DNA of 64,000 nucleotides, from positions 15,562,995 through 15,626,994 of the forward strand of contig OZ037765.1 in assembly GCA_964035545.1 (NCBI GenBank), given 5' to 3'. The DNA comes from Bugula neritina. Its lineage: Eukaryota; Animalia; Bryozoa. Under the pieces are notes generated by a model, which was not told where the DNA came from, searched no databases, and worked only from the letters and a program-made list of their open reading frames with translations. Below are positions 15,861-61,307 of the stretch, piece after piece. The position numbers were made by a program, and so were the translations under genes. The first letter of the stretch is position 1. Each line of letters begins with the position of its first letter.

Positions 15861-15871
15861 CTATTAATTTA

Positions 15872-16275: not shown

Positions 16276-16520
16276 AGTTACTACAATGCTATACTGTGTA
16301 TTACTAGAATGTGTGTTAGTATTCTGTGCATTACTAGAATGTGTGTTAGTATTCTGTGCATTACTATACTGTGCAATACTATACTGTGTAATACTATACT
16401 GTCTATTATGATACTGTCTATTACTATTCTGTGTATTACTATACTGTGTATTACTAGGATGTTTATTACTATACTGTATTACTAAGCTGCGTATTATTAT
16501 AATGCGTATTAATATACTGC
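16276..16520. repeat. 15-bp minisatellite, third block
   Basis: TATTACTATACTGTG units. Confidence 0.85.
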
Positions 16521-16600
16521 CTTGGCGAGTCATTCACAAGTTTAGATATTCCAGTACCCACCAATATTCAGAGACAGAGTATTGGGCTAGCTCTTCAAGG

Positions 16601-21876: not shown

Positions 21877-21955
21877 CCGCCCTCTCCAGCAGGGAGCCCA
21901 CTTCCTGCTAAACTCATAGTGGAGAAAAAGCGTACTGCACACAAAAGAACATTTG

Positions 21956-22044
<89 letters not shown>

Positions 22045-22050
22045 TATATA

Positions 22051-24586: not shown

Positions 24587-24799
24587 AAACATGCAGGCAC
24601 TTGTCCATATTTACACCATGTATACAACAGTTATGCTCCTGTACAGCTTACTAGTCATCAGATTGTCTTTGGAGGACGAGATAGATCATAGAGAAGGGGG
24701 GGACTACTGACGGGGAACGTCAAACAGACATCAAAGCAAGATAGAAAACGGGAAATCACACAGATCAGGAATGTAGCTTAGAACGAAGTAAAAGACATA

Positions 24800-26300
24800 G
24801 TCTTATTCCTTAGCAGCCCGTTTGAGATGAGCAATAGATTCCTTCAGATACTACAACTCGCTCGCTGCAGCCAAGATTCTTGGGGCAAGCCGATGTACCT
24901 TGCACTCTAATTCACTAGTCCGGAGCTCCACTTCACACAAGTTACGGGCCAAAGAGGAACGACGGGGAGGAGAAAAGAAGTTCCACCGTCGCTTACGGTT
25001 TGAAGAAGGAGGAAGAGAGGACGAGCGTTTGTGGGGCTTCGTCTCGATGCGATGCAGTAGGAATCAAGGATATAGGGGGTATAGGTTTGTCTGGATATCT
25101 CCTCTCACTTGGCTTTTGGTATTCAAAGGGGTTTGGTGATAGGGCCAAGGGTGATGGGTCTGGAAATGGGAAATCCCTGGGAGAGACGCTTGAGTCGAGT
25201 TGAATCAGAGACGAAAGGCTGCATCAGACTGAAGAACTTAGGATAAGATGCCTCATCCACATCATATAAGTTTTCCTGAAAACAATTCATTGCCCTCTGA
25301 TGACGGAGTATGTAGTCCCTGTGGTACCTGAACTCCCTACAGAGACAAAAGGTGGTAACAAAGTGTTGTGGAAGATGTACCCGCAGTCTGCGGTGCACAG
25401 GATCGTTAAGGGCATCTTCACTGAGAATATCATAAATTTCTCTCAAAATGCAGTTCAGGTTCTTGAATAATATTGCTCTGCGAGTGGCATGCGTGTTGCC
25501 TACTTGTAATTGTTTAGCCTAAGATTAAACTACAACCAATAAGCAGCAACCTTCATTAGGGCTGCGTTATCTATCAACTTTCCATTATGGGTGCTACATA
25601 AACAAAGTACAAAGCGAGCTATTCATTATAGCTTGCCAGCTAGCAAGCCTGTAATTAGCATGTACGTGCCAATATTTTCTCATCCCTACATGCTCATTGA
25701 AGCGTGAAATGCTGCCCGCCGCTATAGTTTCCTACGAAAAAATAAAGCATTTTCAGTGTATAAATCACCAATTTATGAGCAATCTAGCAGAGTTATTGGA
25801 AAAAAAATTGCACTGGAGAAATATCTCAGGATTCCAGCAGTGCAATTTTCATTCAGATATCATGTTTTGCTGCTGAGATATTTTACTGGTACTGAAAATT
25901 CAGCTTTTCAGGCAAAATTGGCCAAAATTGGGCAGTTTTTTGTCTATAACTTTGCAAAAAAAAGGAAAATTAAAATTTCCAAAAATTTGCACTGGGGTAA
26001 AAAAAGATCTACAACATAGTTTTTAAATTTTGACTCTAGCACAATTAGGTGAGACTTTATTTTACTGGTACTGAATTCTTATATGATTACAATGCAAACC
26101 TCAGCAAGGCAGTTGCAGCTAAAAGGTTGCCCGTAACTATCCTGTGTGGGTTGTAAATTGCTGCTGACATAGCCGACACGTGGTGTTGTCTTCATTACCC
26201 CGGTGTTGAAGGATTTCTCTCTCCGTTGCTGGCGTCATCCAGCACGTCTTGAATTCCAGTGCGTGTGGCAGTGTACGACTGGAGTGAGTAGGTAGATTGG
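24800..26300 (-). pseudogene. Gypsy C accessory ORF3 (zinc-finger-like), split by a MITE
   Basis: Removing 25396-26146 rejoins 'NEDNTTCRLCQQQFTTH' to 'RRLRVHLPQHFVTTFCLCREFRYHRDYILRHQR'; homologous to 59161-59940; outer limits approximate. Confidence 0.8.
25396..26146. mobile_element. 751-bp CACTA/EnSpm-like MITE
   Basis: TIRs CACAGGATCGTTAAGGGCATCTT / AAGGTTGCCCGTAACTATCCTGTG; 2-bp TG TSD; excision restores the ORF3 frame. Confidence 0.85.
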
Positions 26301-26304
26301 GCTC

Positions 26305-29300
26305 GTGAAGTGAGCTGTCCTGCTCAGGAACATGGAAGGTAAGGTGTTCAGGAACCCGAGTCTCTTGACCGAGCATCAGGAGGTTGGGAGTTTCACCAGT
26401 GCTGGTGTGTGGTGTCCTGCGGTAAAGGCGCATGACCTGCGACAGTACCGTATCCCATTCCTCCTGACTATCCCTGAGGAGCAGTCTCCGGAGCGCATCA
26501 CCTAGCATCTGGTTGTTGCGCTCCACCACCCCGTTACCTTTGGGGTGGTAGGGGGTGGTCCTACTCTGGTTCACTCCCCAGAGGCGGCAGAGGTCACTCA
26601 TCAGCTAAGACTGGAACTGAGAACTTTGGTCAGAATGTATCTGTTCTGAAAAATCGAAGTAACCGAATACATGCTGATCCAGCACCCTGGCCACTGTCGG
26701 AGCCGGCGCATCTGGGATAGCCAGGGCGTTGGCCCACCTAGTAAAGTGGTCGGTTAATACTAGGATCCAGCTGTTGCCTCTGGGGGTTGGGGGCATGGGT
26801 TCGATCAGGTCGACAGCTACCACTTGCCATGGCCGTCCAGCATATAACCTCCATCATTCCGCTTCACCAGGGAGACGACCGTGCTTGCTGGCCTGGCAGA
26901 TCTCACACTGTCTGACTCTGAGTCGTACATCACGCCCCATTTTGGGCCAGTACCACCGGAGTTGTAGTTTGAAGATCACCATCTGGACTCCTGTGTGAGC
27001 CTGTTTGTGAGTGTCCCAAATTAACTCACGGCGTATGGCAGCAGAGCAGACCACCCTCCTCTTCTCGGGTGTTTGCCGTTGGCGGCTAGAGTAATGGTCA
27101 GCAGACCATCTTGCTTGATCCGCAGCGAGTCCCAACGCTGGCAGAATAGCCGAAACTCGGCGCATCCCTGCCTCAGTTGTTCCTCGCTGGGTCGCCGCCC
27201 TTCTTTTTTGGCCTGATACATGTCTGCCACCACTCCTGGGAGGTTTTCTTGGAGCTTCCTCAGCTCTTGAACGTTATCGGCTAAAACAGGGTTGGCGCGT
27301 AGGTTTTGCACCACCTCCGAACACTTGTCAACCATCGGCTTGAGTTGACCCTGAACCCATTCATACTCTGCTCCCTGGTGAGCCAGTGTCTCTAACTTGG
27401 ATCGTGGGGTACTTCCATCCCTCTTCTCGATATTAAGACACTGTTTAAAACCTCTGTCTGATGGCCGGCTCAGCCCATCCGCGTTGCCGTGCCTCTTACC
27501 CGGCCGATGTTTGATCCGGTAAAAAAACTTGGCTAGGACCAACCAAATCAAGGAGGCGTGGTCTGTATGCAACCGGAACTTCCTGCCGTACAGATAAGGA
27601 CGGAAGTATTTCACCAACTTGATTACTGCCAGCAACTCCTTTCGGGTAGTGCAGTAATTTCGTTCAGTGGGTGAGAGAGACTTGCTGTAGTAAGCTACTA
27701 CTACCTCTCGGCCTCCCTGCATTTATGACAGCACAGCGCCAACATTCTGGTCACTGGCGTCCGTGTCCAGGATATACCCTAGAGCCGGGTCTGGGTAGGC
27801 CAAGATGGGCGCCGCTAGCAGACAACCTTTGAGGCGGTCAAACGCCTGCTGTCCTACCGGAGACCACTGCCACGCTACCCCCTTTGCGGTGAGCCGGTTT
27901 AACGGCTGTGCTATCCCCGCAAAGTCTGGTATGTATTGCCGGTAATACCCTACCAGATCCAGGAATGCCCGGAGTCCTGTCAAGTCCTGGGGGGTAACCC
28001 AGTCTTCTATAGCCCGCACTTTTTCAGGATCCGTCGCGACGCCGTTCCGGCTGAGAACGTGCCCCAGGTACTTAACTTCTAGCTGCAACAGAGCCCACTT
28101 GGAAGGTTTCAGCTTTAGACCGGCACCTCTGAGTTTTTCGAAAACCTCCCTCAGACGACACACACCTGTCTTGAAGTCTGGGGAGATCACAATGACGTCA
28201 TCGAGGTAGTCCAGTGAAGTCCGCTAAGGACTTGTTCCATCAGCCTCTGGAAAGTGGCCGGGGCGGAGGTTAGCCCAAACGGCAGTACCTTCCACTTCCA
28301 CTTCGCCTTCTCCTGGGCATCGAGACTCAGAGGAACCTGCCAGTACCGCCCAACAAGTCTAACGTACTGAAGTACTTGCTACCGGCTAAGGCATTCAAGG
28401 ATTCACCAATATGGGGTAAAGGGTTGGCGTCCTTTATGGTCACCTTATTGAGTTTGCGGGAATCCACACAGAACTGCCAACTTTCGTTTTGCTTCTAGAC
28501 CAAGACGAGCGGCGAGCTTCATGCGCTATAGGCTGGCTCTATGAGGCCGCGGTCCAGAAGATCTCGAACTTGTCAGCTGACCTCTTTTTCCTTTTTCGGT
28601 CCCAACCTACGCATGGGTTGTCGAATACGAACTGTCCCCGCAGCTATCTCATGACGGACAGCCCGTGTCAGTCCCACGTCATGGTCTCCGCTGCCGAACA
28701 CGTCGTTGTACTCGTGTAGCAACTTCGCCATAGCCTGGCGTTTCTCGTTGCTCATGCAGCCGTCACAGGCTGTTTAGTACAACTCCTTGACGTTTGGCGG
28801 GACGTTCCCCGCCCTTTAGAGGAGCACGATCGGGGACCCTCTGTCGTATCTCCCAACGACGGTCCCACGTCCTCTTCCTGGACGGAATGGAAACGGCCCA
28901 GCATGGACCCTGCCAGTAGCTTTACTGACTCTGTGAAGGGGTTGACGCACTGCACTAAGATCTCTCCTTGCGCAGTCAGCTGATTGAGACTGCTGGCGAG
29001 CTGAATTCTATTGTGCGCACCTTCCATCTTTCCCAGCCCGGAGATTTGGCTATTGTTCACTCTACAGTGAATAGTAGCCCGAGGAGCGGCCCGGTATTGT
29101 ACAGTTTCGTACTACCTGCACGCCTCCCACTAGAGGACGACCGAACTTGTCGACACAGGTGAGCTCTCGCTTGGCTATTAGCATTGCAGATTTACTGAAG
29201 TCAATGTGACACCCGTGTCGTTTCAAGAACGGCATCCCGAGGATAGCATTCTCTTCGAGCTGGCTGATGACAAACGTCTCCCGTATAGCTTGGTCACGGA

Positions 29301-31955: not shown

Positions 31956-32775
31956 CTGTCAAGCTAAAATATTAAGATTAATTATCTTAAATTGGCCAAA
32001 TTACTTTATACTAAAAGCTTTACTGGGCAGAGTTTATAGCTGGCGTTTAATTTTAGAGTATGGAAATTTTGTTTTTCAACAGCAGTAGCTTTTATCACTC
32101 AGGTGGGTAAAAAAGTATACTATTAAAGTACTCTTCACTTAAAAGGAGGCAACTCCGCGAAATTGATCTGACACTCTCATGGAAAAATGATCGATCTGAG
32201 CACATGTCTCAGATTGATCTCAGCGAGATCGATCTGAGATCGATCCATGGAAAGCCCGTGATTGTTGATGATGGCGTCTGACAATTGACTTAGACCTCAG
32301 GCTATCAGCTAAATACTTAATACTAATACTCCGTAGCGATTCAACCTATAACTGTTATAACCCAACACGCTGATATGTTTGGCCTCCTCATCATCATTCT
32401 ATTGTTACAATGTTATTATATTAATTTGTATTATGTGTATACTCTGTAGCATACTATATAGTAATTACGTGTACTCGGTTATATAATCTTTTTGTGTCTA
32501 AGCATTACTTATACTAATATTACTTTATTGTGTGTTTGTAGTACATTCTCTGGCTTATGGTTTGAGACAGATTAAAGATTACCTACCACTCGAAACTAAT
32601 CCAAACTTTCTTATCTCAATATCTGTTTATCCACAAACAACTACAATAACAATTACAAAACATTGGAATAATCACTGACATAAACATGGTGCCCCGAGTA
32701 AGGAAGTTATTACACTGAATGCTACCTATACTACAGCTAGTTCCTGATACAAGATACAAAATAGTTATTGTAAAC

Positions 32776-34941: not shown

Positions 34942-34942
34942 T

Positions 34943-37808: not shown

Positions 37809-37809
37809 A

Positions 37810-41221: not shown

Positions 41222-42132
41222 TTATTGCGATGGTAGCCCCTCTTCTACGGTAGCTAGGCGAGTACGATCTGGAGATGGGGTCGGGATCTTACGAAGGGGA
41301 GGCACTGCTTCTTCTTCCATATCGGCATAGGTGGGTTCTTCGGGAGTATATGCAATCCCGGGTCTGTCAGATACCATCGACGATTGTTGGCGAGCATACT
41401 TCAGCACATGCTGGAACCCTGAGGTCAAGACGGCCAGCACCATCGCTTTCTTGACTAAGGGCCGTATTAGTGTTAAAAAATCTGGGTATGAGTCAGCATC
41501 CACGACGTAGTTTTCCCCCGGGAAGCATCCAGATGCTCGATGTCTAATGATTGGGTAGAGATAGACATCGTGGTGTCCGCATGGACAGAATGTCAATAGA
41601 AAAAGTGCATCCACATGCAATCTTAGAGAGCGGTGAGACGGGCTATCCTCGTAACATATTTGGCATTATGTACTTTCTTTAGGCCCCCATGCAGCCTCTA
41701 TTTTCCTCTCCGTCTCTGGTGACACCCACCGCCAACGGCAGCGCATTGGCCCGGGTAGTCCACCATTGGCGTTCTCCTCTTGGTGTGGAGCGGGAAGTGC
41801 TCGGTTCCGTACCCTGGCTGTGGCGGGTCGAGTGTAACCTAAAAGAGTGCAACAGCGTTAGTGGACTACACTGCAGTGTTGTCGGTTTTAGACAGCCTGA
41901 CAACTTCTCGTGGTTAGACACTCGCAGAGATTTATGTTAGTGAATAGTTGGAAGAGAACACATACTGCAGTGAGATTGTGAAATCTCTGAGTCAATCTAT
42001 GTTCTTACCACTGTTGTTCACTAGCCTATCTCCAGCTCAATTGACTCAGACGAGTCGGAGCTGAGTGATGCAATTAAGTTTCCATACCAAGAACATAGTT
42101 AACTCACCCCACGATCCGGTATTGTATGACAT
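41222..42132 (-). pseudogene. Gypsy D accessory ORF3 with short first exon
   Basis: ATG at 42132 gives MSYNTGSW-G|GTGAGT; downstream 'CQIC...RLHVDALFLLTFCPCGHHDV...RH...C...YVVDADSYPDF'. Confidence 0.72.
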
Positions 42133-46531: not shown

Positions 46532-49500
46532 AGCCGAGCGACCCAGAGGGTCGTCGACAGCTGTCGACGACGGGTGGCGCCCCGTATGCTGAGGCTGTGG
46601 CAGTGGTGGGCACTTCATGCGAAGTTGCCCCCATGGTAGAGGGAGGTAGTTAAACGGCACTGGCCCACGGTAACTTCCGCCAACCGTGGGCCCCGGTTTA
46701 ACCCTCCAAGGCAGAGGCCAAGGCCCAAACCCCACCGGGTGAGGAGGCTGCCTTCGCCAGGGTGGCAAGCCCCAAGGAGAGTTAGTAGGCCGCAAGGCCC
46801 GCCAAAACCTCCGGCTTGGGCACTCAAAAACCGCTTTGAAGGTTTACCTGATGAGGGATTTCTCTCGGTTGCCCACACGAGCACCAATTTGAGAATTCAC
46901 TCGGCCGCCCGTGTGTGAGCAAGACCGAGATGTAACCTGCTTTCCCACGCGACGTCAACGACCCCCTCGCAACCGAAAAGGAGCGAAACAGGGATTTCCC
47001 TCAGTTGCCCACACGAGCATCAGTTCGAGAATTCACTCGGCCGCCCGTGTGTGAGCGAGACCGAGATGTAACCTGCTTGTCCACGCAACGTCAACGACCC
47101 CCTCGCAACCGAAAAGCACAGGTGCATCCCCAACTCCATGCACATGAGGTGTCGCCTCAAGAGACGAACCGCTCAGTGAGCGCTCAGCCATATGGAAGCA
47201 GCTATTTCCTCCCCGGCAAGCTTGCCAGAAAAGCTGTCACATTCCTGTTGGATACTGGGTGTACCACAAATATACTGAGCCGGCGTCTATTCAACACTCT
47301 CAGTGCTAAGGACAAGGCTAGCCTAGAAACATACGAAAGGGAGCACGGCACGTTGGTGGACGGGTCGTGTATTCCTTTCTATGGGGTAATCCAGTTGACT
47401 GGTAGAGCCCGTGATCAGACGATCAGCGAGACCTTCATCGTCAGTCAACTTAATGAGGACGCCATCTTGGGCATGCCATTTCTGAAGCGACACAGGTGCT
47501 ACATTGACTTTAACAAGTCGGTGGTAGTGATGGCTGGATGTGAGCTGGCCTGTGTCGACCGATTTTGCCGACCCTTGGTGGGGGGAGTGCAGGTGGTACA
47601 GCGCTGTACTGTACCTGGGCGCTCCCGTGCTACAGTTCGCTGCAGAGCGAACTGTAGGGAAATCTCCGAGCTCGGAGTGGTGGAAGGTGCACTGGGGGCG
47701 TCCAGTTCGCTGACAGTCTGAATAGACTAGATGAGCGGGGGTAGTTCCTGGTCCAGTGCGTGAATCCTTTCACGGAGCCGGTAGAATTGCTGGCTGGGTC
47801 TCTAGTGGGAAAGTTCCACTCCGTACAGGAGGTGGATGTCGGGCCCGCGCTGGAGACAGCGGACGAAGCCCGTGGGATACCCACTAGAGACGGCAGTGGG
47901 CCGGTGCCTGAACACGTGGCGGAGTTGTACGAGGATGCCTGTGATAGCTGTGAGAGCAAGCGGGAACGCCTGGTGATGGTGCGGCTACTCTCTGAGTACA
48001 AGGACGTGTTTAGTTGCGGCGACCATGACATGGGTCTGACTAAGGCTAGCTGTCATGAGATACCCCTGGCGACAGGGACGGCGCCCATCCAGTACGGGCT
48101 GTGAGGGACTGAGCTGTCCCTGTCGACCTCCCTGACCTGCGGGCATTCCTGGGACTGGTAGGGTACTATCGTCAGTACATACCAGACTTCACAGGAATTG
48201 CACAGCCGTTAAATCGGCTGACAGCAAAAGGGGTGCGATGGCAGTGGACACAGGCCGAGCAGAAGGCATTTGACCACCTGAAGGATCGCCTGGTGGAAAC
48301 ACCCATCTTGGCGTATCCTGACTCAGCGAAGGAGTACATTTTGGATACTGATGCCAGTAACCATAATGTGGGGGCTGTGTTGTCGCAAGTCCAAGATGGT
48401 CGCGAGGTGGTGGTGGCTTACTATAGTAAAGCCCTGTCGGCGCCTGAGAAGAACTACTGTACAACCAGGAGGGAACTCTTGGCAGTAGTCAAGGCGGTCA
48501 AACACTTTAGACCATATCTATATGGGCGTACGTTCTGACTACGAACGGATCATGCGTCTTTGATATGGCTGTGTCGACGGGCGGAACCATCAAGCCAAGT
48601 AGCGCGCTGGCTGGAAATCCTGGCAGAGTTTTCTTATCGGATCGAACACCGACCCGGTAAGAAACACGGTAATGCCGACGGACTCAGCCGCCGCCAGGCA
48701 GATGGGTGTAAGCAATGCCAGAATATCGAGCGCAGGGATGGTGGACCCCTTCGCTCGGATGTTGAAGAACAGTTGGGGAAAGCGGGTGTATACAGCTGGG
48801 AGGAAGGACAACTTTGGTCCGAATCCCCTAATGAGGCTGTCAACAACCTTCATGCAAACCCCGCGCTGCTCAGGAACGTCAGGGAGCTGTGTCGGCTCTA
48901 AGCCACGCTACCAGGGGTGGTGGCTGACCTAGTCCAGGCCAAGAAGGAGGGACGGCGGCCGAGTGAGGCCGAACAGCGGATGAAAAGTGCAGAGTTTAAA
49001 TACTTCTGCGACCGCTGGGACTTCTTCCGGTTTAACGGCGATGGGCTGCTAACGATAACATTGGCAGCCGGCACCAATCGCCGTGAATGAGAGAGGGTGG
49101 TTTGTCCGTCCGCTCTGAGGCGGGAGTTGATCTGGGACACCCATAAGCAAGCTCATGCAGGAGCTAGTCGGGTGACTAGGTGTCCTCAACTCTAGAGGTT
49201 TTGGCTGGGTATGACCCGGGATGTCCGACTCTGGGTGCGGAAGTGCGAGGTATGCCAAGCTAGTAAGCATGGCCGCCCCACTGAGACCGCAGGGAGGCGT
49301 CGCTTCCGTGCCGGTCGTCCGTGGCAGGTAGTTGCTGTAGATCTGGTAGGCCCCATGCCCACAACAGTGAGAGGTAATAACTGGACACCGGTATTAACTG
49401 ACCATTTCACGCAGTGGGCTGATGCACTGGCTATTCCAGATGCGTCGGCCCCCTCGGTGGCCAGAGCCTTGAATCAGCAGGTATTCTGTTATTTCGGCTT

Positions 49501-50593
49501 GCCGGAGCAGATACACTCTGATCAAAGCGCCCAGTTTCAGTCGCAACTTATGAGCGATCTCTGTAAAATGTGGGGGGTAAACCAGTCGGACGACCCCGTA
49601 TCACCCGCAAGAGAACGCGGTTGTGGAGTGGAACAACCGAATGCTAGGGGACTCACTGAGAAGCCTGCTTATGGGTAGGAGCCAGAAAGAGTGGAACTTG
49701 GTGCTGCCGCAAATCATGCGAGCTTACCGTAGTACCCCTCACTCCAGTACACTGGAGACCCCTAATTCTCTCATGCTGGGGAGAGGAACCAGGGTTCCTG
49801 AGCACGTAACCTATCATGTTCCGGCTCCCGAGAGCAACGTCCACAACTACGTGGATGAGCTCGTAAAACGCATGGGGATGGCTCACGAGGTGCTATGTGA
49901 GCAGCAATGGCAGGTCAGGAGTGGTGACTCTGATGACCCCCCCTCCCCTTGCAGAAGGTGGGAGACTGGGTCTGGATGACCAGTCATCGCCGGCGACGCG
50001 GACAGGTGGCTAAGTTGCAGTCGAAGTTCGTGGGTCCCTATTGCGTAATTGAGGTGATGCCTAATCACACCTATAAAGTGGAACGGTCTGGACAAGTGTC
50101 GGTCCAGAACGAAGCACGGCTGAAACCTTACCCTAATGCAGCAGGTCAAGCACCTCCTCTCTTAGAGCCCGCTAGACGCCCTCCTATGAGGGGGTCGAGG
50201 CATGGCGTATAAAGAGATAGAGGAGATACTGCAAGATCAGGAAGGAGCGGCCGACGCGCCGCCCGACCCGCCCCAGCCGCCTCCACCACAGGAGAAGGAG
50301 GCCACACACCGGAAGACCAGTTGGAGCCGGCCCCACCACCAGTGGAGCTGGCCGACAGGCTTATCGCCCCGGATGAGATGGAATTTCCTCAAATTCATGA
50401 GGAAGAGGCAGCTGAGAGGGGACCACCCGTACTGGTGAACCCCCCCGTACTGGCGACACCACCTATGGTGGAAGAATCACCAGCAGCAGCAAACTCTCCG
50501 GTACCGTTGGAACGTAGCCAACGTAACAGGGCGCCACCATCTTATTTGAAAGACTTGTTGTGCGACTTGGTCAACATGCACAGTATTTTGTAA
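46532..50593 (+). pseudogene. pol: Gypsy E gag end and pol remnants
   Basis: 'FLLDTGCTTN', 'LDTDASN', 'VAVDLVGP', 'HSDQ'; collinear with 53900-58500. Confidence 0.92.
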
Positions 50594-50832
50594 CACGTCG
50601 ACATGTACAAAGAAGTCTGGGGGCGAGGTTATTGATAGCATGCTGCCCAGTGGCGGATAAAATAGGTCAGCCGGGGGTCAGCAGAGCGAAGCCAACTCAA
50701 TAGCGTATAGAGTGTTACATAACCACTCTAGCTGTGAGCGCTCTTTTCAATTACAACCAGCAAACAGGCAGCACGTCTTTTGCAGTGAACAATTTGGCTA
50801 CTACGAGCCCTAAGAAAACAGATAGCAAACAT

Positions 50833-51839
50833 TATGTCTAATGCAGCAACTGTTTTGGAGGGTAAGTCTACTAAAAATTCTATATTAATCAATTAGAATT
50901 TATTCTGGTAGCGACGTCAGTCTCACTTTATCATAATGATAAAGTTGAAACTCCTAACATCAGACGATACGTCGATGATTAGAGTGGGACAGTCAGCTCA
51001 ACTGATTATGTGATCAGTGAGTGGCAGACTGTGTGACTCAGTTATCAGTATTATTTTAAAACGGGAGTCCCGCGCATAGAGTGTGATTCAGACAGTAGAT
51101 TAATTTAAATACTCTATTGCAGGTGAGGCTGAGTCTGTATTTGATGAGATACAGGCACTGCTTGTGATACACCAACTACTAACTGGGATAGCATGTCAGA
51201 GACAATCAACGGTGCGCTGAATGCAGACGGACTTTCTCAACCATGAAGCGACTAAAAATGCACATACCAAAACACTTCACTGTAACTTTCTGTCCCTGTG
51301 GAGTCCACCACTTTTACAGGGATGCTATACTGCGCCACCAAAGGACTCCGAACTGCTATGTCGGACACCTATACGAAGTCGAAGCTGACTCATATACTGA
51401 ATTTCGAGACTTGATCCTACCACATGTGACTGACCCGGACCGAAGACAGACGCTACTAGACCAGTTCCCCGCCACTCGACCGACAGTAGAGAGCGACTCA
51501 GACGCAGACCCTCAGCCCCCAGAGACCACGACAATGACACATACTTCAGACGTGACTACACAACCTCTCCGTGTTATTGTGACCCGCACTGGACGCACGG
51601 TAGCAAACGACTCACAACCCCCAACTACGACGAACTCTTACGTACCCAGTCGCACACAGAGAAAGAGGAAGAGTGCTGGTAGTACGACCAAGGAGAACAT
51701 TAGCCCTGACCAGTTCCTACTGACAGACATCAAAAAACTACAGCGACGTATGGCTCGTCTCTGTAAAGAGCCGAAAAGAGCAACTACCGAGTTGGCTAAA
51801 TTGCAGACACGACTTGAGAGACGACTGGCCAAAGAGTGA
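50833..51839 (+). pseudogene. Gypsy E accessory ORF3 (spliced, partly deleted)
   Basis: ATGTCTAATGCAGCAACTGTTTTGGAGG|GTAAGT ... CTCTATTGCAG| then 'CAECRR...HIPKHFTVTFCPCGVHHF...RHQR' and coiled-coil tail. Confidence 0.75.
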
Positions 51840-52006
51840 ACAGAAGAGCGTTCCCCCTTTCCTCCCCCCTCTTTTCCACTAGGACTGTGTGTCACCATGT
51901 AAATAGATTGTGCGTAATAGAAACTTGCTTATCTTATGTGTATACTGTGATAGATTCTCATCCTCTACTGTTCTCAAGTAACTGCGTGTGTCAGTATTAT
52001 AATTAC

Positions 52007-52520
52007 TGTGGCGTATATTTTGAATGCTGTAATTATAGCTAAGTTGGGCTAGCTTTCTAATGCCCTATTATTGTGATTGTTGTTAAAGCTTTCAGTATAA
52101 TGTAATTTTCATGAAATACGCATTTCCAGAGTTATTTTCCCTTTCTGCTATTTTATCGTTTTGCATTAATACTGATACTGGAAATTTGTGTAGTTTTTAT
52201 GAATGCCTTCAATAGGTTGTTATTATAGCTAAATTCTTGGCCTATTGAATGATTCATTCTCCTTTGTCTATTTTTCTTTTGTTACTGTCAAGCTTAACTT
52301 TCTTTTGTCTGTTGGAACATTCTAGATGTGAATTCTTGTGTATAAAAGCAGGCGAGTTTCCAGTGTAGATTCAGACTACTACTGGAGCTCGCTGGTAGTA
52401 GGACCACATAAGCTGTATCTGATGCAAATAAAGGTATCTTTCATTCGTACTCAAATACTTGGCTTATTCTCTTTAGAGCATGTAGGCACTAGTTGCATTC
52501 AAAACCCACAGTTTACTACA
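52007..52520 (+). mobile_element. Probable solo LTR in the 3' UTR of Gypsy E
   Basis: TG...CA; TATAAAAG at about 52341, AATAAA at about 52427; flanks TTAC/ATAC; absent from the equivalent region of element F. Confidence 0.55.
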
Positions 52521-53120
52521 ATACTATTCTGTCATGTATATTCTTTTTCCATTTTTTATATCTAGTTTTTGTAAATTTCTCATGCCTACTGTAATCATAG
52601 AGTGCACCTTTCGATAGGTGTGGCGAGTGTAATGGATTTCTGTAGTGCAATCAGTATCTAGTTTGTATATCGAAAGGGTCGACTCTATGTTGTCTTATTG
52701 TGGAGGTCGACTGTGATAGATTTTAGTAATGCAATTCTTATTATATTAATCGAAAAGGTTTACTCTATATTGTTTATTATCTTGTGAGTTCGACACTGTC
52801 GGAGTGTAACTATGGACAGCAGTGGCACCACTAGTAACCACCAATCACGACAGTCACACTAATTGATAGCAGGTGGAGCTAGCTACTCGTAGTTGCAGTG
52901 TGCTGAGTAGCTAGCCGGCAGAGCAGCTTGGGACTTCATTTAGAGTAGTCGTGTATTAAAGCTCACTAATTATGTAATCGTTTTCTATTCATGTTAGCAG
53001 TAAATAACCTTCTTGTATTTGTGTAAATAATAAAGTATCTTATCGTAAACAACCTGGTGCAGTGGCTTTGATTAAGTAGACCCACACATAATAATAGTGA
53101 ACTGGCAAAATTCACTACAC

Positions 53121-53140
53121 TGGTGGCAGCGGTGGGATTC
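53121..53140 (+). promoter_or_regulatory. Primer-binding site (tRNA-Leu)
   Basis: TGGTGGCAGCGGTGGGATTC one base after the LTR. Confidence 0.9.
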
Positions 53141-53174
53141 CACTTAATACAAATGCCCCTAGCCAGGGAGTAAG

Positions 53175-54044
53175 ATGGCCGACGAAGTCGTCGACGCGCC
53201 CCGACAGGAGCCAGCAGCAATAGAGGAGGATCACATAGGCGGCCCAGCGCTGCCTATGGACAGGTACCACTTGCGGGCTCCCATCTTCTCAGGAGAAGAA
53301 GATGTGGAGCAATTCATCACTGAGTTTAGTGATGTGGCGGACATCTGCGGATGGCCGAACAGGGTTACTCTGATCCAGCTGCGGTTGTGTCTGACAGGGC
53401 CGGCTAAACCCTATGGGATAAGCCAGAATGTCGGTGACATATTTGAAGCACTACGAGCTAGGTTTGGATTAACCGCTCGAGATGCTCGCGTGCAACTGCA
53501 GAGTCTTAGGAGAAATCCTAAGACCAATCTGCGAGAGCACGCTACCGTAGTCGAACGACTGGCACAAGTTGCTTACAGCGACTTGCCTGCCGACAGTCGA
53601 CAGAGCCTAGCACTGGATGCATTCCTCCAGTCTATTAACAACCTCGGTCTGAAACAGCATCTGCTGGTGGCCGAAGTTGAGACTATGGAGAGAGCTCTAA
53701 GGCTTGGGAATGCCTATTTCCAAGCCAACAGTGCAAGTCGACCTGGTGCGACAGTACAGCAGGTCGGGGCAGACGACGTGTCGACGTCGCCAGCGAAGAC
53801 AGCTGTACAGGTCGCAGCGGCAGCAGCAGACGAATCTAGCTTAACCACGAGCTTGATTCGAGAGCTGCTAGCCGAGATCAGGCAACTGCACCAGCAGGCG
53901 ACAGCCGAGAGACCCAAGAAGTCGTCGGTAGCTGTCGACGACAGGCGCGGCCCCATATGCTGGGGCTGTGGTAGTGGTGGGCACTTCCTACGAAGTTGCC
54001 CCCGCGGCAGTGGGAGGCGGTTAAACAGCGACGGCCCACGGTAA
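53175..54044 (+). CDS. gag: Gag with C-terminal CCHC knuckle
   Basis: 'APIFSGEEDVEQFI', 'LRARFG', 'CWGCGSGGHFLRSC'. Confidence 0.93.
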   Translation: MADEVVDAPRQEPAAIEEDHIGGPALPMDRYHLRAPIFSGEEDVEQFITEFSDVADICGWPNRVTLIQLRLCLTGPAKPYGISQNVGDIFEALRARFGLTARDARVQLQSLRRNPKTNLREHATVVERLAQVAYSDLPADSRQSLALDAFLQSINNLGLKQHLLVAEVETMERALRLGNAYFQANSASRPGATVQQVGADDVSTSPAKTAVQVAAAAADESSLTTSLIRELLAEIRQLHQQATAERPKKSSVAVDDRRGPICWGCGSGGHFLRSCPRGSGRRLNSDGPR

Positions 54045-54063
54045 CTTCCGCCTACCGTGGGCC
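54020..54063 (+). promoter_or_regulatory. Predicted -1 ribosomal frameshift signal (G_TTA_AAC, 6-nt spacer, 11-bp hairpin)
   Basis: pol is in the -1 frame; stem GGCCCACGGTA/TACCGTGGGCC; same layout at 46649-46692 and 62123-62166. Confidence 0.82.
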
Positions 54064-57000
54064 CCAGTTTAACCCCCCAAGGCAGAGGCTACGGCCCCCA
54101 CCCCACCGGGTGAGGAGGCCGCCTTCGCCAGAGTGGCAAGCCCCAAGGAGAGTGAGTCGGCCGCAAGGCCCACCAATACCTCCGGCTTGGGCACTCAAAA
54201 ACCGCTTTGAAGGTTTGCTTGATGAGGGAGTGAACGATGAATGGGAGCACAACAGGGATTTTCCTCGGTTGCCCACACGAGCATCAGTCCGAGAATTCAC
54301 TCGGCCGCCCGTGTGTGAGCGAGACCGAGACGTACCCTGCCCGCCCATGCAACGTCGACGACCCCCTCGCAACCGAAAAGCACAGGTGCATCCCCAACTC
54401 CATGCACATGAGGTGTCGCCTCAAGAGACAAACCGCTCAGTGAGCGCTCAGCCATATGGAAGCAGCTATTTCCTTCCCGGCAAAATTGCTGGTAAAGCTG
54501 CCACATTTCTGTTGGATACTGGGTGCACCACAAATCTACTGAGTCGACGTCTCTTCGACACTCTCAGTGCCAGGGACAGGGCTAGTCTAGAACCATATGA
54601 AGGGGAGCACGGCACGTTGGCGGATGGGTCGTGTATTCCTTTCTATGGGGTAATCCAGTTGACTGGTAGAGTCCGTGATCAGATGATCAGTGAGACCTTC
54701 ATCGTCAGTCAACTCAAGGAGGATGCCATCTTGGGCATGCCATTTCTGAAACGACACAGGTGCTACATAGACTTTAGCAAGTCGGCAGTAGTGATGGCGG
54801 GGCGTGAGCTGGCCTGTGTGGACCGATTTGGCCAACCCTTGGTGGGGGGAGTGCAGGTGGTACGGCGCTGTACTGTACCTGGGCGCTCCCGGGCTACAGT
54901 TTGCTGCAGAGTGAACTGTAGGGAAATCTCCGAGCTCGGAGTGGTGGAAGGTGCACTGGGGGGCGTCCAGCTCGCTAACAGTCTGAATAGACTGGATGAG
55001 CGGGGGGAGTTCCTGGTCCAGTGCGTAAACCCTTTCACGGAGCCGGTAGAATTACCGGCTGGGTCTCTAGTAGGGAAGTTCCACTCCGTGCAGGAGGAGG
55101 ATGTAGGGCCCGCGCTGGAAACAGCGGACGACGCCCGGGGAGTACCCACTAGAGACGGCAGTGGGCCGGTGCCTGAACACGTAGCAGAGTTGTACGAGGA
55201 TGCCTGTGATGGCTGTGAGAGCAAGCGAGAACGCCTGGAGATGGCGCGGCTACTCTCTGAGTACAAGGACGTGTTTAGTTGCGGCGACCATGACATGGGT
55301 CTGACTGAGACTGTCTGTCATGAGATACCCCTGGCGGCGGGGACGGTGCCGATTCGGCAGCCGACCCGCCGGTTAGGTCCTGAGAAGGAGAGAGAAGTGA
55401 GCCGTCAGGTGCAAGACCTTCTGAACCGGGACCTGATTGAGCCAGGCCATGGGGCCTGGAGTTCTCCAATCGTCCTGGTTCAGAAAAAGGATGGTAGCTG
55501 GAGGTTTTGCGGTGACTATCGCAGGCTGAACAGCGTGACCATCCAGGACGCTTACCCTCTCCCGAGGATCGATGAGTCGCTCGATGCCTTAGCTGGTAGC
55601 AAGTTCTTCAGCACGTTGGACTTGCTAAGCGGGTATTGGCAGGTGCCCCTGAGTCCTGAAGCACAGGACAAGGCCGCGTTTATAACGCGGGATGGGCTCT
55701 GGAAATGGAAGGTGTTGCCATTCGGACTTACGTCCGCACCAGCCACCTTCCAGCGACTCATGGAGCAGGTCCTGAGAGGACTGCACTGGAAGACCTTGCT
55801 CATCTATCTCGATGATGTCATCATCATCTCCCCCGACTTCGACACACATGTCAGTCGACTCAGGGAGGTGTTCGACAGACTCCGAGCTGCTAGCCTGAAG
55901 CTAAAGCCCTCGCAGTGTGCATTACTGCAACGCGAGGTCAAGTACCTGGGCCATGTAGTTGGTCGAGACGGGGTCGCCACCGACCCCGAGAAGGTACGGG
56001 CTGTGAGGGACTGGGCCGTTCCTGTCGACCACTCTGAATTGCGGGCGTTCCTGGGGCTGGTAGGGTACTATCGTCAGTACATACCAGACTTCGCCGGAAT
56101 TGCACAGCCGTTAAATCGGCTGACCGCAAAGGGGGTGCGATGGCAGTGGACGCAGGCTGAGCAGAAGGCATTTGACCACCTGAAGGATCGCCTGGTGGAA
56201 GCACCCATCTTGGCGTATCCTGACCCTGCGAAGGAGTACATTTTGGATACTGATGCCAGTAACCATAATGTGGGGGCTGTGTTGTCGCAAGTCCAAGATG
56301 GTCGCGAGGTGGCGGTGGCTTACTATAGTAAAGCCCTGTCGGCGCCTGAGAAGAACTACTGTACAACCAGGAGGGAACTCTTGGCAGTAGTCAAGGCGGT
56401 CAAACACTTTAGACCATATCTATATGGGCGTACGTTCTGACTACGAACGGATCATGCGTCTTTGATATGGCTGTGTCGACGGGCGGAACCATCAAGCCAA
56501 GTAGCGCGCTGGCTGGAAATCCTGGCAAAGTTTTCTTATCGGATCGAACACCGACCCGGTAAGAAACACGGTAATGCCGACGGACTCAGCCGCCGCCAGG
56601 CAGATGGGTGTAAGCAATGCCAGAATATCGAGCGCAGGGATGGTGGACCCCCTCGCTCGGACGTCGAAGCGCAGTTGGGGAAAGCGGGTGTGTACAGCTG
56701 GGAAGAAGGGCAACTCCTGTCCGAATCGCCCAACAAAGCTGTTAACAACCTTCACGCAAACCCCACGTTGCTTCGGAACGTCAGGGAGCTATGTCGGCTC
56801 CAGTCTACGCTACCAGGAGTGGTAGCTGACCTAGTCCGGGCCAAGAAGGAGGGACGGCGGCTGAGTGAGGCCAAACAGCGAGTGAAGAGTACTGAGTTTA
56901 AGTACTTCTGTGACCGCTGGGACTCCCTCAGGTTCAACAGCGATGGGCTGCTAACGATCACGTTGGCAGCCGGCACCAATCGCAGTGAACGAGAGAGGGT

Positions 57001-58500
57001 AGTCTGCCCGTCAGCTCTGAGGCGGGAGTTGATCTGGGACACCCATAAGCAAGCTCACGCAGGAGCTAGCCAGGTGATCAGGTGTCTTCAACTCCAGTGG
57101 TTTTGGCCCGGTATGACCCGGGATGTCCGACTCCGGGTGCGGAAGTGCGAGGTGTGCCAAGCTAGCAAGCATGGCCGCCCCACTGAGACCGCAGGGAGGC
57201 GTCGCCTCCATGCCGGTCGTCCGTGGCAGGTGGTTGCTGTCGATCTGGTAGGCCCCATGCCCACAACAGCGAGAGGTAATAACTGGATACTGGTATTAAC
57301 TGACCATTTCACGCGGTGGGCTGATGCACTGGCTATTCCAGATGCGTCGGCCCCCTCGGTGGCCAGAGCCTTGGATCAGCAGGTGTTCTGCTATTTCGGC
57401 TTGCCGGAGCAGATACACTCTGACCAAGGCGCCCAGTTTCAGTCGCAACTTATGAGCGATCTCTGTAAAGTGTGGGGGGTAAACCAGAGTCGGACGACCC
57501 CGTATCACCCGCAAGGGAACGGGGTTGTGGAGCGGAACAACCGAATGCTAGGGGACTCTCTGAGAAGCCTGCTTATCGGTAGGAGCCAGGAAGAGTGGGA
57601 CTTGGTGTTGCCGCAGATCATGCGAGCGTACCGTAGTACCCCTTACTCCAGTACACTGGAGACCCCTAACTTTCTCATGCTGGGGAGAGAAACAAGGTTC
57701 CTGAGCACGTAACCTATCATGTTCCGACTCCCGAGAGCAATGTCCACGACTACGTGGACAAGCCCGTAAAATGCATGGGGACGGCTCACGAGGTGCTACG
57801 TGAGCAGCAGTGGCAGGTCAGGAGTGGTGACTCTGACGACCCACCTTTATACAAGGTGGGGGTCTGGGTCTGGATGACCAGTCATCGCCGCAGGCGCGGA
57901 CAGGCAGCCAAGTTGCAGCCGAAGTTCGTAGGTCCCTACTGCATAATTGAGGTAATGCCAAACCATACATACAAAGTGGAACGGTCTGGACAGGTGTCGG
58001 TCCAGAACGAAGCACGGCTAAAACCTCACTGGGCAAGTCCTGATGCGGCAGGTCAAGCACCTCCTCTCTTAGAGCCAGCTAGGCGCCCTCCTATGAGGGG
58101 GCGACCCATGGCGTATCGAGAGATTGAGGAGACACTGCCAGACCAGGACGGGGCGGCTGATGCGTCGGCCGACCAGCCCCAGCCTCCTCCACCCCAGGAA
58201 GAAGAGGTCGACACACCTGAAGACCTGTCAGAGCCGGCCCCACCACCAGTGGAGCCGGTCGACAGGCCCATCGTTCCGGATGAGATGGAAATTCCTCAAA
58301 ATCATGAGGGAGAGGCAGCTGGGGGAGGGCCACCCGTACTGGTGGACCCCCCCGTACTGGCGACACCACCCGTGGTGGAAGAGTCACCAGTCGCAGCAAA
58401 CTCCCCGGTACCGTTGGACCGTAGCCAACGTACCAGGGCGCCACCATCTTATTTAAAAGACTTCTTGTGTGACTTGGTCGACATGCACAGTATTCTGTAG
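54020..58500 (+). CDS. pol: Pol (PR-RT-RH-IN); in-frame TGA at 56438-56440 and a frameshift near 57690
   Basis: 'LLDTGCT', 'IYLDDVII', 'LDTDASN', 'TDHASL', 'H...H...CEVC', 'VAVDLVGP', 'HSDQG', 'YHPQGNGVVER', 'KFVGPY'. Confidence 0.93.
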
Positions 58501-58741
58501 CATGGCGACATTCACAAAGAAGTCTGGGGGAGCGAGGTAATTGATAACAGGCGACCCAGTGGCGGATTGAATAGGTCAGCCGGGGGTCAGCAGAGCGTAG
58601 CCAAATCAACAGCGTATAGGGTGTTACATAAGCACTCTAGCTGTGAGCGCTCTTTTCAATTACAGCTAGCAAACAGGCAGCACGTCTTTTGCAATAAACA
58701 ATTTGGCTATCTACGAGCCCTAAGAAAGCAGCAGCATCATT

Positions 58742-59940
58742 ATGTCTAATGCAGCAACTGTTTTGGGGGGTAAGTCTACTAGAAATTCTATAATAATTAA
58801 TTAGAATTCATTCTGGTAGCGACAGCAGTCTCACTTTTTGTCATAATGATAAAGTTGAAACTCCTGACAGCAAATGATATTGATAGTTAGAGTGGGACGG
58901 TCGACTCAGCTGATTACACGATCAGTGAGTGACAGACTGTGAGACTCGATTATTAATATCGTTTGGAACGGGAGTCCCACGCATAGAGTGTAATTCAAAT
59001 TTAAATACTCTATTGCAGGTGAGACTGAGCCTGTATCCGACGAGATACAGGCATTACTTGACACACCTACGACTAACTGGGACAGCATGTCAGAAGCAAG
59101 GGTAGACATGCTGTCCGACATACACTTATCAACATTTACGGACTCCCCGACAAACTCGCGATGCAAATAGATACAAATGACTTGACTGTTGACTTGACTG
59201 TAGCCAAGGACAATACTCTAGCACTACCACGGGCCTTACTGGGACGGACTAACTGGACGACTCGACGGACTCGAACACTGATAGAAGCACTAGTAGGGTC
59301 AGACGACAATAGACAATGTACTGAATGTAGAAGAATACTATCTACTACTAGGAGACTGAGAATACATGTCCCCCAACATTTTACTGTGACTTTCTGTCCC
59401 TGCGGAGTCCACCACTTCTGCAGGGACACTATACTACGACATCAACGGACTAGAGACTGCTACATTGGACACTTATATGAAGTCGACGCAGACTCCTACA
59501 CTGAGTTCAGGGACCTGATACTACCTCACGTGACCGGCCCAGACCGACGACAGACTCTCCTAGACCACTTCCCCGCTACCCGACCTACAGTAGAGAGTGA
59601 CTCTGATGCAGACCCCCAACCCTCCGAGACAACGACTACCTACTCTCCAGACGTAACCACCCAACCTCTACGCGTCGTAGCAACCCGTGCTGGACGCGCT
59701 GTAACGAAGGACTCACAACCCCCAACGACGACGATCTCCTATGTGCCCCGACACACCCATAAGAAGAAGAGGGGTGCTAGCAGCACACCCCGAGATGACA
59801 GCGACCCTGACCAGTCCCTACTAACCGACATTAGGAAAGTGCAACGGCGTATGGCCCGCCTCAGTAAGGAACAGAAGCGAGCGACCACCGAGCTGGCTAA
59901 GTTGCAGACCCGACTAGAGAAACGGCTGGCGAAGAAGTGA
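58742..59940 (+). CDS. Accessory ORF3: C2H2-like zinc-binding domain, basic patch and C-terminal coiled coil; predicted intron 58770-59018
   Basis: ORF 59161-59940 'CTECRRILSTTRRLRIHVPQHF...CPCGVHHFCRDTILRHQRTRDC', 'HKKKRG', 'IRKVQRRMARLSKEQKRATTELAKLQTRLEKRLAKK'; homologues in C, D and E; exon-2 frame needs a 1-nt correction near 59145. Confidence 0.75.
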
Positions 59941-61307
59941 TAGAAGTGCGGCCACCTACACATGTACCCCCCCTCCTGGCTAGTCAAGCATTGTAAATAG
60001 GTGTTATGGACTACGGCGTGAAGACTTGTTTATTATACTGATGTTATCTACTCTGTATATATATTTTCTCTTGTTCAAGTGTACCCTTAGTTTTGTAAAA
60101 CCCTATGTTACCTTCATCATTATTCGTGTGTTACTGTCATGTAAATATTAAGTCTAGAGAGTACTTTTCGATAGGCGAGGAGAGTGTGATAGATTTTAGT
60201 AATGCAATTCTTATTATATTAATCGAAAAGGTTTACTCTATATTGTTTATTATCTTGTGAGTTCGACACTGTCGGAGTGTAACTATGGACAGCAGTGGCA
60301 CCACTAGTAACCACCAATCACGACAGTCACACTAATTGATAGCAGGTGGAGCTAGCTACTCGTAGTTGCAGTGCGCTGAGTAGCTAGCCGGCAGAGCAGC
60401 TTGGGACTTCATTTAGAGTAGTCGTGTATTAAAGCTCACTAATTATGTAATCGTTTTCTATTCATGTTAGCAGTAAATAACCTTCTTGTATTTGTGTAAA
60501 TAATAAAGTATCTTATCGTAAACAACCTGGTGCAGTGGCTTTGATTAAGTAGACCCACACTTAATAATAGTGAACTGGCAAAATTCACTACACGACTACA
60601 TCGACTCCCAGCCGACGTACATCTTATGGTCGACAGTGGCAACACTAATACTAGCCAATCAGGAAGGACTGTTAATTGATAGCAGGTGGAGCTAGCTACG
60701 CGTAGTGGAAGCACGCTAAGTAGCTAGCCGGGCAGAGCAGCTTGGGACTTGGCATAGAGTAGTTGTGTACAAAGTGCTCAGTATTATGTAATTGTGCAAT
60801 TAATTTAAGAGTAGTTCATTTATTGTATCTTTGTAAATAATAAACTCTATATAACGTGATCAACCTGGTGCAGTAGCTTTGTATAAGTAGACCCACATAA
60901 TATAGTGAATTGGGAAATTCACTACACCTGGTACACTTTGCTGATTAGATGAGTTTTACATGGTCTAGTGTGGTGGCTCGTGGAGCTACCAGCAACACAA
61001 TACGCAAGGTTGCGTATTGACCCGGAACAATGTATTAGCCAATTAGCTAGGCTGTTTTATAAGTAATAGTAGCCGCTTCACGCTACTAGCTCAGTTGAGG
61101 ATAGTGCTGTAAATTAAATAGACGTGCGTATCATTACTGTTGTACATTAGATTTTATTATGTATTCTTGTATTAAAATATAACGATATCTACTCGACTTA
61201 ACCCGGTGAGGTTTCTCTAGTGATAAACAGACTCTCTTGGTGACACATCAACCCTAAATCTGAAAACTATAACAGTGGTGGCAGCAGTGGGATTGTGTAT
61301 ATCAAAG

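What the first reader, a model, noticed from the sequence alone, without database searches (positions are those of the whole stretch)
58742..59940. Gypsy lineage carries a conserved non-env third gene encoding a zinc-finger/coiled-coil protein
Seen: four diverged Gypsy copies (C 24800-26300, D 41222-42132, E 50833-51839, F 58742-59940) have a sense-strand ORF between pol and the 3' LTR. They share CxxC-x12-H(xxxH), then F-C-x-C, then RH, then C...Y(E/D/V)VD(A/E)xSYx(E/K/D)F, even though their LTRs are dissimilar. E and F end in a basic patch and a heptad-like helix. No signal peptide, furin site or transmembrane segment is visible. Known: the usual ORF3 in this position (errantiviruses) is a membrane env. 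Inference: this is a nuclear nucleic-acid-binding accessory protein (transactivator, RNA export factor or anti-silencing factor), as in complex retroviruses. I do not recognise it from described families.
Basis: partly seen in the sequence, partly recalled or inferred. Interest (0 to 1): 0.85.

Follow-up and report, generated by a model that had tools for sequence, protein, structure and literature searches.

The report
Gypsy retrotransposon's own zinc-finger regulator gene
A family of jumping genes in a marine invertebrate carries an extra, strongly conserved gene for a two-zinc-finger protein where viruses keep their envelope gene, and this protein likely acts as the element's own transcription switch, something known from complex retroviruses but not found in my searches for this kind of transposon.

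Summary
The third gene is real. Four Gypsy copies (C, D, E, F) carry it between integrase and 3' LTR, but all four are broken here; intact relatives exist (P0001, 96% to F). dN/dS between E and F is about 0.07. A profile finds 194 clusters at E<=1e-10; the three named ones of 30 looked up are bryozoan. In another host the domain is fused in frame to Pol (5 of 5 testable loci, 2 families). The protein has an acidic N-terminus, a compact domain with a classical C2H2 finger plus a CxC-type C2HC/H finger (model pLDDT 94; the finger pair overlays DNA-bound tandem fingers, Z only 3.5-3.8), a basic patch and a coil predicted to self-pair antiparallel. It is not env. The gene has a short ATG exon and a phase-1 intron in D, E and F; one database protein shows the joined form, but no RNA junction was seen. 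Best reading: a dimeric DNA-binding activator of the element (45%). Rivals: Rev/CERV-like RNA export, integration targeting, anti-silencing. No LTR target motif was found, and the D clade lacks the acidic region. A new variant of non-env ORF3.

The parts
52712..53119 (+). Element F 5' LTR (408 bp, TG..CA), flanked by a 4-bp target duplication at 52708-52711 and 60593-60596
   Evidence: 2 mismatches to the 3' LTR in 408 positions
53121..53138 (+). Primer-binding site, tRNA-Leu type; the same PBS in C, D, G and in L001, L003, L004
   Evidence: the same 12-mer is typed as Leu in the supplement of PMC13524379
53163..58500 (+). F gag and pol (PR-RT-RH-IN-SH3, Gypsy order), broken by a stop at 56440 and a frame change near 57700
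58742..58769 (+). F ORF3 mini-exon: ATG, 9 codons plus 1 nt, then a GTAAGT donor (predicted)
   Evidence: P0019 begins with this peptide and continues in register with exon 2
58770..59018 (+). Predicted phase-1 intron, 249 nt
   Evidence: ends conserved and interior diverged in contigs of related genomes
59019..59940 (+). F ORF3 exon 2; acidic/hydrophobic N-terminal part to about 59160, frameshifted there in this copy
59218..59586 (+). Compact zinc-finger domain: W-T-T helix, finger 1 C2H2 (59317-59379), 5-residue linker, finger 2 CxC-x12-H-x5-C (59395-59460), YxVD strand and two helices
59749..59772 (+). Basic patch, NLS-like (inferred)
59806..59934 (+). C-terminal 43-residue helix, predicted antiparallel homodimeric coiled coil
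60185..60592 (+). Element F 3' LTR, preceded by a purine tract
50834..51839 (+). E ORF3: mini-exon 50834-50861, predicted intron 50862-51122, exon 2 with a deletion at about 51200
52628..60926 (+). E 3' LTR, split by element F (52628-52711 and about 60597-60926)
41222..42132 (-). D ORF3: mini-exon 42132-42108, predicted intron 42107-41839 (269 nt, phase 1, in frame to the Cys domain), internal stop, 3' end lost
24780..26331 (-). C ORF3 remains: start of the domain 26331-26146, insertion about 26146-25396, rest of the domain 25395-25126, basic patch and helix further on in another frame

Best explanation
This Gypsy lineage carries a conserved third gene for a two-zinc-finger protein, which likely is made from a spliced subgenomic mRNA and likely works as a dimeric DNA-binding activator of the element's own transcription. 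Shown: the gene, its position, purifying selection, the finger motifs, its link to one integrase lineage. Predicted: the compact fold and self-pairing of the C-terminal helix. Inferred: host factors give low basal LTR transcription; the spliced mRNA makes ORF3 protein; the basic patch takes it to the nucleus; the finger pair binds DNA in or near the LTR; the antiparallel coil and a flexible linker of about 70 residues let two finger domains reach two spaced sites; the acidic, Leu/Trp-rich N-terminus recruits co-activators and gives positive feedback, as Tas does for foamy viruses (recalled). D-clade proteins lack the acidic region and would be repressors, competitors or differently acting versions.
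For: Finger 1 is a classical C-x2-C-x12-H-x3-H: the family profile matches SALL3 at E 6e-5 among PDB sequences, and 35 of 111 members match zf-C2H2_4 at E<=0.05. In the core model (pLDDT 93.7, pTM 0.84) residues about 30-81 overlay two consecutive fingers of DNA-bound proteins: ZBTB20 rmsd 2.2 A over 50 residues, Z 3.6; SALL4 2.5 A over 51, Z 3.6; Kaiso 3.0 A over 58, Z 3.8. Finger-1 helix is K/R at +2 (47 of 53 representatives), R at +3 (37) and R/K at +5 (37). An acidic-plus-W/F/Y/L window test (recalled heuristic, my thresholds) is positive upstream of the fingers in 13 of 29 representatives, against 4.9 in shuffles and 3 of 32 downstream; 3 of 6 F-clade, 6 of 6 C-clade and L004 pass. Basic clusters downstream in 16 of 32 against 8.4 shuffled; heptad score above shuffles in 28 of 32. 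Coil homodimer: score 0.44, best of 3 controls 0.00, runs agree in 100% of contacts, pLDDT 81; the mark was reached by 21 of 30 solved microbial pairs and 0 of 23 single chains, by 7 of 16 animal pairs, and a pass may be from memory of like coils. Splicing: donor and acceptor at phase 1 in D, E, F; P0019 has the joined form in register. E keeps a diverged ORF3 together with a diverged LTR while its pol is close to F (dS 1.7 against 0.11-0.21): one event, compatible with protein and target travelling together.
Against: No binding or activation was measured. No shared LTR motif: the best 5-mer over four LTR families was reached by 194 of 300 shuffles, the best 4-mer (ATTA) by 9 of 300; inverted repeats occur in F, E and G LTRs but not in C or D. 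The helix residues are conserved across families whose LTRs are unrelated, which fits a common or non-specific target better than a family-specific site. The finger linker is 5 residues in 137 of 137, shorter than the canonical TGEKP spacing (recalled), and position +6 of finger 1 is mostly hydrophobic. Structural Z-scores are below 4, and Foldseek gave nothing at E<=0.001. D-clade proteins fail the acidic test 0 of 5, L001 fails, and 1 of 4 F gag/pol pieces passes it, so it is not specific. In P0269, L001, L002, L004 the domain is in frame with integrase. The only tested Gypsy precedent, CERV, is an export factor and is not needed for transcription (PMC10309623).
Confidence: 0.45

Rival explanations
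1. Rev/CERV-like export factor: it binds the unspliced genomic RNA through its Arg-rich fingers, oligomerises through the coil and takes intron-containing RNA out of the nucleus.
For: The element has an intron that genomic RNA must keep. CERV of C. elegans Cer1 is a spliced, post-pol, nuclear protein with a Cys loop, zipper, NLS and NES and does this job. Conserved arginines across families with unrelated LTRs suit RNA binding. NES-like spacing can be read by eye in F- and C-clade N-termini.
Against: NES-pattern matches are not enriched: 13 of 29 upstream against 15.7 shuffled, 17 of 32 downstream against 14.6. CERV is described as H-M-G domains with a C4 loop, a different build. The finger pair overlays DNA-bound fingers.
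Confidence: 0.2
2. Integration-targeting or chromatin-tethering module of integrase, like the chromodomain of chromoviruses (recalled), later split off as a separate gene in some families.
For: In frame with integrase in P0269 and in L001, L002, L004. F lies inside E's LTR and the window is a nest of related elements. Conserved basic helix fits a common chromatin target.
Against: C-clade, D, E and F place a stop and hundreds of non-coding bases between pol and the gene and give it its own ATG and splice sites. Fused families also show phase-1 acceptor-like sites just before the acidic region (best-ranked in L004/L007, third-ranked in L001/L002; crude score), so they may make the free protein too.
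Confidence: 0.15
3. Anti-silencing factor: it binds element DNA and displaces or blocks host repression (as VANC proteins do for VANDAL transposons, recalled) rather than recruiting co-activators directly.
For: Same DNA-binding and dimerising anatomy; faster sequence change than integrase (domain 24-48% against IN 53-74% among the same elements); top structural row is the methyl-CpG reader Kaiso (tied with others).
Against: Strong purifying selection and conserved helix residues show no arms-race signal; no enzyme or known silencing-factor domain.
Confidence: 0.15
4. A captured host gene fragment carried along without use to the element.
For: Annotated bryozoan genes hold the domain (XP_067944745.1, KAF6040922.1, XP_067940964.1).
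Against: dN/dS 0.07; six ligands invariant across 58 sequences at about 21-54% identity; kept in every testable element.
Confidence: 0.03

Closest known systems
CERV of C. elegans Cer1 (PMC10309623; passages and section 9 read)
   Same: Gypsy element; non-env product of the region between pol and 3' LTR; spliced mRNA; Cys-rich finger, zipper, NLS candidate; nuclear regulator.
   Different: CERV is 517 aa, shares exons with gag, has H/M/G domains and a C4 loop, is confined to nematodes and exports RNA. This protein has a C2H2 plus C2HC/H pair, its own ATG exon after pol, an acidic N-terminus and a C-terminal coil.
Non-env ORF3s of bdelloid rotifer LTR elements (PMC5408684; passages read)
   Same: Third ORF after pol that is not env; said there to be typically made from spliced messages.
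   Different: Those are GDSL esterases, DEDDy exonucleases, coiled-coil or TM proteins; the word 'finger' does not occur in that text.
Errantivirus env ORF3 (PMC13524379; passages and two supplement hits seen)
   Same: Position after pol; spliced expression (recalled).
   Different: No signal peptide, TM or glycoprotein fold. Bryozoan env elements in that paper are gB-type in GAG-ENV-POL order.
Tandem C2H2 transcription factors (SALL3/4, ZBTB20, Kaiso)
   Same: Finger 1 sequence and two-finger geometry.
   Different: CxC knuckle and mostly Cys as last ligand in finger 2, 5-residue linker, and flanking helices and strand that fold with the fingers into one domain with no match found.
Foamy virus Tas/Bel1, HTLV Tax and HBZ (recalled, not tested)
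   Same: Element-encoded nuclear regulators from spliced 3' genes; Tax also takes its ATG from a small upstream exon; HBZ has acidic N-terminus, basic region and zipper.
   Different: Retroviridae, no sequence or fold match found in BFVD; none is a tandem C2H2 protein as I recall.

Membership tests
Ty3/Gypsy (Metaviridae) LTR retrotransposon | LTRs, PBS, PPT, target duplication, PR-RT-RH-IN order | tested here: met
Ty3/Gypsy named clade (MolGy, PolGy, C-clade and others) | Placement in an RT tree with reference elements | not testable with these tools
   No reference set on hand; PMC6238403 and PMC8556966 (term counts and passages) have no occurrence of 'zinc', 'ORF' or 'PBS'
Errantivirus env | Signal peptide, cleavage site, TM anchor, F- or gB-type ectodomain | tested here: not met
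   131 of 137 family proteins have no hydrophobic window above 1.6; model is a zinc-finger domain plus coil
Classical C2H2 zinc finger | C-x2-C-x12-H-x3-H with hydrophobic core positions (finger 1) | tested here: met
   below Pfam curated cut-offs for F and E
Classical C2H2 zinc finger | Canonical TGEKP-type linker and C-x2-4-C in the second finger | tested here: not met
   linker 5 residues in 137 of 137; CxC; next ligand Cys in 106, His in 27
Classical C2H2 zinc finger | Two fingers arranged as on DNA | tested here: inconclusive
   rmsd 2.2-3.0 A over 50-58 residues but Z 3.5-3.8
Classical C2H2 zinc finger | Sequence-specific DNA binding | not testable with these tools
   no LTR motif found
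CERV | H, M (C4 loop) and G-protein-like domains; exons shared with gag | tested here: not met
   architecture; CERV sequence itself was not compared
Rev-like export factors | Leucine-rich export signal | tested here: inconclusive
   pattern matches no more frequent than in shuffles
Transcription activators | Acidic/hydrophobic activation region | tested here: inconclusive
   enriched upstream overall, absent in D clade, heuristic not specific
bZIP-type factors | Parallel zipper next to the DNA-binding region | tested here: inconclusive
   model gives an antiparallel pair, separated from the fingers by a low-confidence linker
Chromovirus integrase | Chromodomain at the integrase C-terminus | tested here: not met
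   Pfam on fused Pol proteins shows no chromodomain

The most novel reading that the evidence does not exclude
A bryozoan-centred lineage of 'complex' Gypsy retrotransposons encodes its own sequence-specific, dimeric zinc-finger transactivator from a spliced 3' gene, the Metaviridae counterpart of foamy virus Tas, and bryozoan hosts have domesticated the domain more than once as transcription-factor genes.
Probability: 0.4. Interest if true: 0.82.

Novelty: new variant of a known kind. Interest (0 to 1): 0.66.

Why it matters
LTR retrotransposons are usually taken to rely on host transcription factors; the one review my search returned on LTR-activating factors lists only host factors for gypsy in the passages seen. 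An element-encoded zinc-finger regulator would give a Gypsy lineage the feedback control of complex retroviruses. It also adds an undescribed zinc-finger domain (194 clusters at 50% identity), found free, fused to integrase and in annotated host genes, so it offers a direct case for studying exchange of zinc-finger modules between transposons and hosts. The functional question is testable with ordinary reporter and binding assays.

Tried and rejected
No whole genome is held, so copy counts in the host were not possible. Locus scans with ORF3 alignments found no confirmed relative in metagenome contigs (59 pattern hits) or viral contigs (11); integrase scans found none in viral contigs (10) or genome contigs (57). 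No RNA holder listed; contigs of four runs guessed to be RNA and one untyped run showed no joint at the predicted intron; they cover intron sequence and may be DNA, so this counts neither way. Foldseek against PDB and BFVD: nothing at E<=0.001. The VIA search with the full model was filled by generic helices, Z<=5.6; the scaffold around the fingers found no match, which does not show a new fold. ESM Atlas: unnamed clusters at 0.90-0.92, then generic C2H2 under 0.9; leads only. Shared LTR motif search negative; a GTAG motif seen by eye was rejected, as the unrelated LTR has it as often. NES enrichment negative. L012's zinc-finger tail is not this domain (hhalign probability 6%). The domain tree (69 rows, quick method, 7 of 66 branches starred; L001 dropped by my length filter) cannot give the direction of host-element transfer; a longer tree run did not finish. 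The D row of the integrase table was out of frame and is ignored; D's integrase is 69% to F. Earlier scan findings: none by sequence or words. Ten literature searches showed no description of a C2H2 ORF3 in Gypsy; Repbase, Dfam and most subscription journals were not searchable, so a database annotation may exist. Supplements of PMC5408684, PMC6238403 and PMC8556966 were not opened.

Full report
Setting. The window is an animal repeat nest: satellites, BEL/Pao pieces and several Gypsy elements. Element F spans 52712-60592 with LTRs differing at 2 of 408 positions, a tRNA-Leu-type PBS, gag, pol in PR-RT-RH-IN order and a 4-bp target duplication; it is inserted in the 3' LTR of element E. C, D, E, F and the cut-off G share the PBS, and their integrases are 69-87% identical to F's over the best segments.

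The observation. The F reading frame 59077-59940 finds sense-strand homologues after integrase in E (75%), C (47.5%) and D (40%). All four are damaged: F by a frameshift near 59150-59160, E by a deletion near 51200, D by a stop and loss of its 3' end, C by deletion and an insertion of about 750 bp in finger 1. Intact relatives are in public metagenomes: 36 of 1363 candidates for F alone, P0001 at 96%, and 124 of 7995 with a profile. The unrelated Gypsy at 32267-40191 has no such motif on its sense strand.

Selection. Over 211 codons of E and F, dN 0.12, dS 1.74, ratio 0.07 (bootstrap 0.035-0.11, 462 of 500 usable); core 0.03, linker 0.14, coil 0.06; differences by codon position 36/22/101; shifted frames give 1.7 and 2.5, two antisense frames 1.2 and 2.4, and the antisense frame sharing third positions 0.19. 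dS is near saturation, so the value is rough but far below 1. Pol of the same pair has dS 0.11-0.21 and ratio 0.19-0.33; identity falls from about 90% to about 77% at E's deletion, so E is a mosaic with ORF3 and LTR from a more distant subfamily.

Family and range. A profile of 35 sequences found 373, 194 and 48 clusters at E<=1e-3, 1e-10 and 1e-30 among 1.84 billion representatives; 150 were listed, and weak rows include generic multi-finger proteins such as P0218. Of 30 clusters looked up, three carry a species name, all bryozoan: Watersipora subatra twice and Bugula neritina once. The host of the window is therefore likely a bryozoan or similar invertebrate (inference). The link to this Gypsy lineage holds outside the window: P0269 is RNase H-integrase-SH3 followed in frame by the domain and a C-terminal helix. 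An integrase scan gave 12 loci; 10 belong to the lineage (46-73%), 5 of these have at least 1.8 kb downstream, and 5 of 5 carry the domain (two families; in frame with Pol in L001, L002, L004; broken by a stop or frameshifts in L007, L008); the other 5 have under 450 nt. The two distant loci (31% and 36%) lack it.

Gene structure. In F, E and D an ATG is followed after 28, 28 and 25 nt by a GTRAGT donor; introns of 249, 261 and 269 nt end in YAG; all are phase 1, and in D the exons are in frame to the first Cys although D and F domains are only about 40% alike. P0019 starts with the mini-exon peptide and continues in register with exon 2 after one junction residue, the only one of 270 proteins to do so. 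Contigs from related genomes match around donor and acceptor and diverge between them. No RNA junction was seen, and those runs may be DNA. Splicing is thus well supported by sequence but not shown in RNA.

Protein. The full model has pLDDT above 94 for residues 21-140 and 221-259, and about 50-60 for the N-terminus and linker. The core alone folds as one domain (pLDDT 93.7, pTM 0.84). Six ligands are invariant in 58 diverse sequences. Of 270 proteins, 137 match the two-finger pattern, all with a 5-residue linker. The finger pair overlays DNA-bound tandem fingers at 2.2-3.0 A over 50-58 residues with Z under 4; the flanking helices found no match. The C-terminal helix is predicted to self-pair antiparallel (score 0.44, best control 0.00, contacts agree 100%, pLDDT 81; supports but does not show binding; mark reached by 21 of 30 microbial and 7 of 16 animal pairs, 0 of 23 and 0 of 30 single chains).

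Function. Acidic hydrophobic N-terminus, tandem fingers, basic patch and dimerising coil are the build of a transcription factor (established knowledge). The acidic test is enriched upstream (13 of 29, shuffles 4.9, downstream 3 of 32) while an export-signal pattern is not. Against a family-specific LTR activator: no shared LTR motif, conserved helix residues across unrelated LTRs, no acidic region in the D clade (0 of 5), and fusion to integrase in some families. I give activator 0.45, export 0.20, integration targeting 0.15, anti-silencing 0.15.

Known systems. Non-env third ORFs are known in Gypsy elements: CERV in Cer1 (PMC10309623; passages and section 9) and enzymes or coils in rotifers (PMC5408684; passages). 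PMC6338049 (first of four parts read) names chromodomain, exonuclease and helicase as accessory domains. None of what I saw describes a C2H2 ORF3, and ten searches found none; Repbase and Dfam could not be checked. The kind is known; this family and its likely role are not.

Host genes. XP_067944745.1 (Watersipora) and KAF6040922.1 (Bugula) share the domain and a further N-terminal segment found in no other protein held (27% over 291 aa, E 7e-20), which suggests a conserved host gene; XP_067940964.1 has two copies of the domain and groups weakly (80) with the window's clade. Their genomic context was not seen, and the tree cannot say who took the domain from whom.

Verdict. Real, selected and apparently undescribed; mechanism inferred. 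New variant of a known kind, interest 0.66.

Noticed in passing
L012:1468-2241: A distantly related Gypsy (integrase 31% to the query) has a different in-frame tail with a C2HC then a C2H2 finger, not alignable to this domain. Zinc-finger tails may have been gained more than once in Gypsy elements.
   Followed up: partly
P0187 and P0278 (database proteins): Annotated Watersipora and Bugula proteins share an unnamed N-terminal segment of about 60 aa plus this finger domain; likely orthologous host genes, domesticated or donor. P0122 and P0143 carry the domain twice.
   Followed up: partly
window 48092-52711 against 55994-60592: Element E is a mosaic: pol and intergenic region about 90% identical to F, ORF3 and LTR about 77%, with the switch at a deletion near 51200.
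   Followed up: partly
window 21920-24022 (+): A 700-aa frame flanked by (TA)n runs inside element C looks like a Penelope-like reverse transcriptase by recalled motifs; Pfam gave no relevant hit.
   Followed up: no
window 25396-26146: An insertion of about 750 bp with terminal inverted repeats starting CACAG and an apparent 2-bp duplication, CACTA/EnSpm-like by recall, interrupts C's third gene.
   Followed up: partly
window 52878-52915 and the matching part of E's LTR; 60998-61019: Inverted repeats in LTRs: 11-bp arms in F (1 of 150 shuffles), 9-bp arms at the same span in E, an unrelated 10-bp one in G; none in C or D. All five LTRs have a CCAAT word.
   Followed up: partly
window 58665: A strong acceptor-like site 77 nt before the mini-exon ATG; the mRNA may be doubly spliced from a 5' leader.
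   Followed up: no
P0224 and P0262 (database proteins): Protease of this lineage fused to the finger domain with no RT or integrase match: possibly a deleted, non-autonomous element that keeps the third gene.
   Followed up: no
window 398-1729, 9130-13825, 3300-8300, 14500-16550: BEL/Pao-type pieces (DUF1759, DUF1758, DUF5641) and 10-bp and 15-bp satellite arrays.
   Followed up: no
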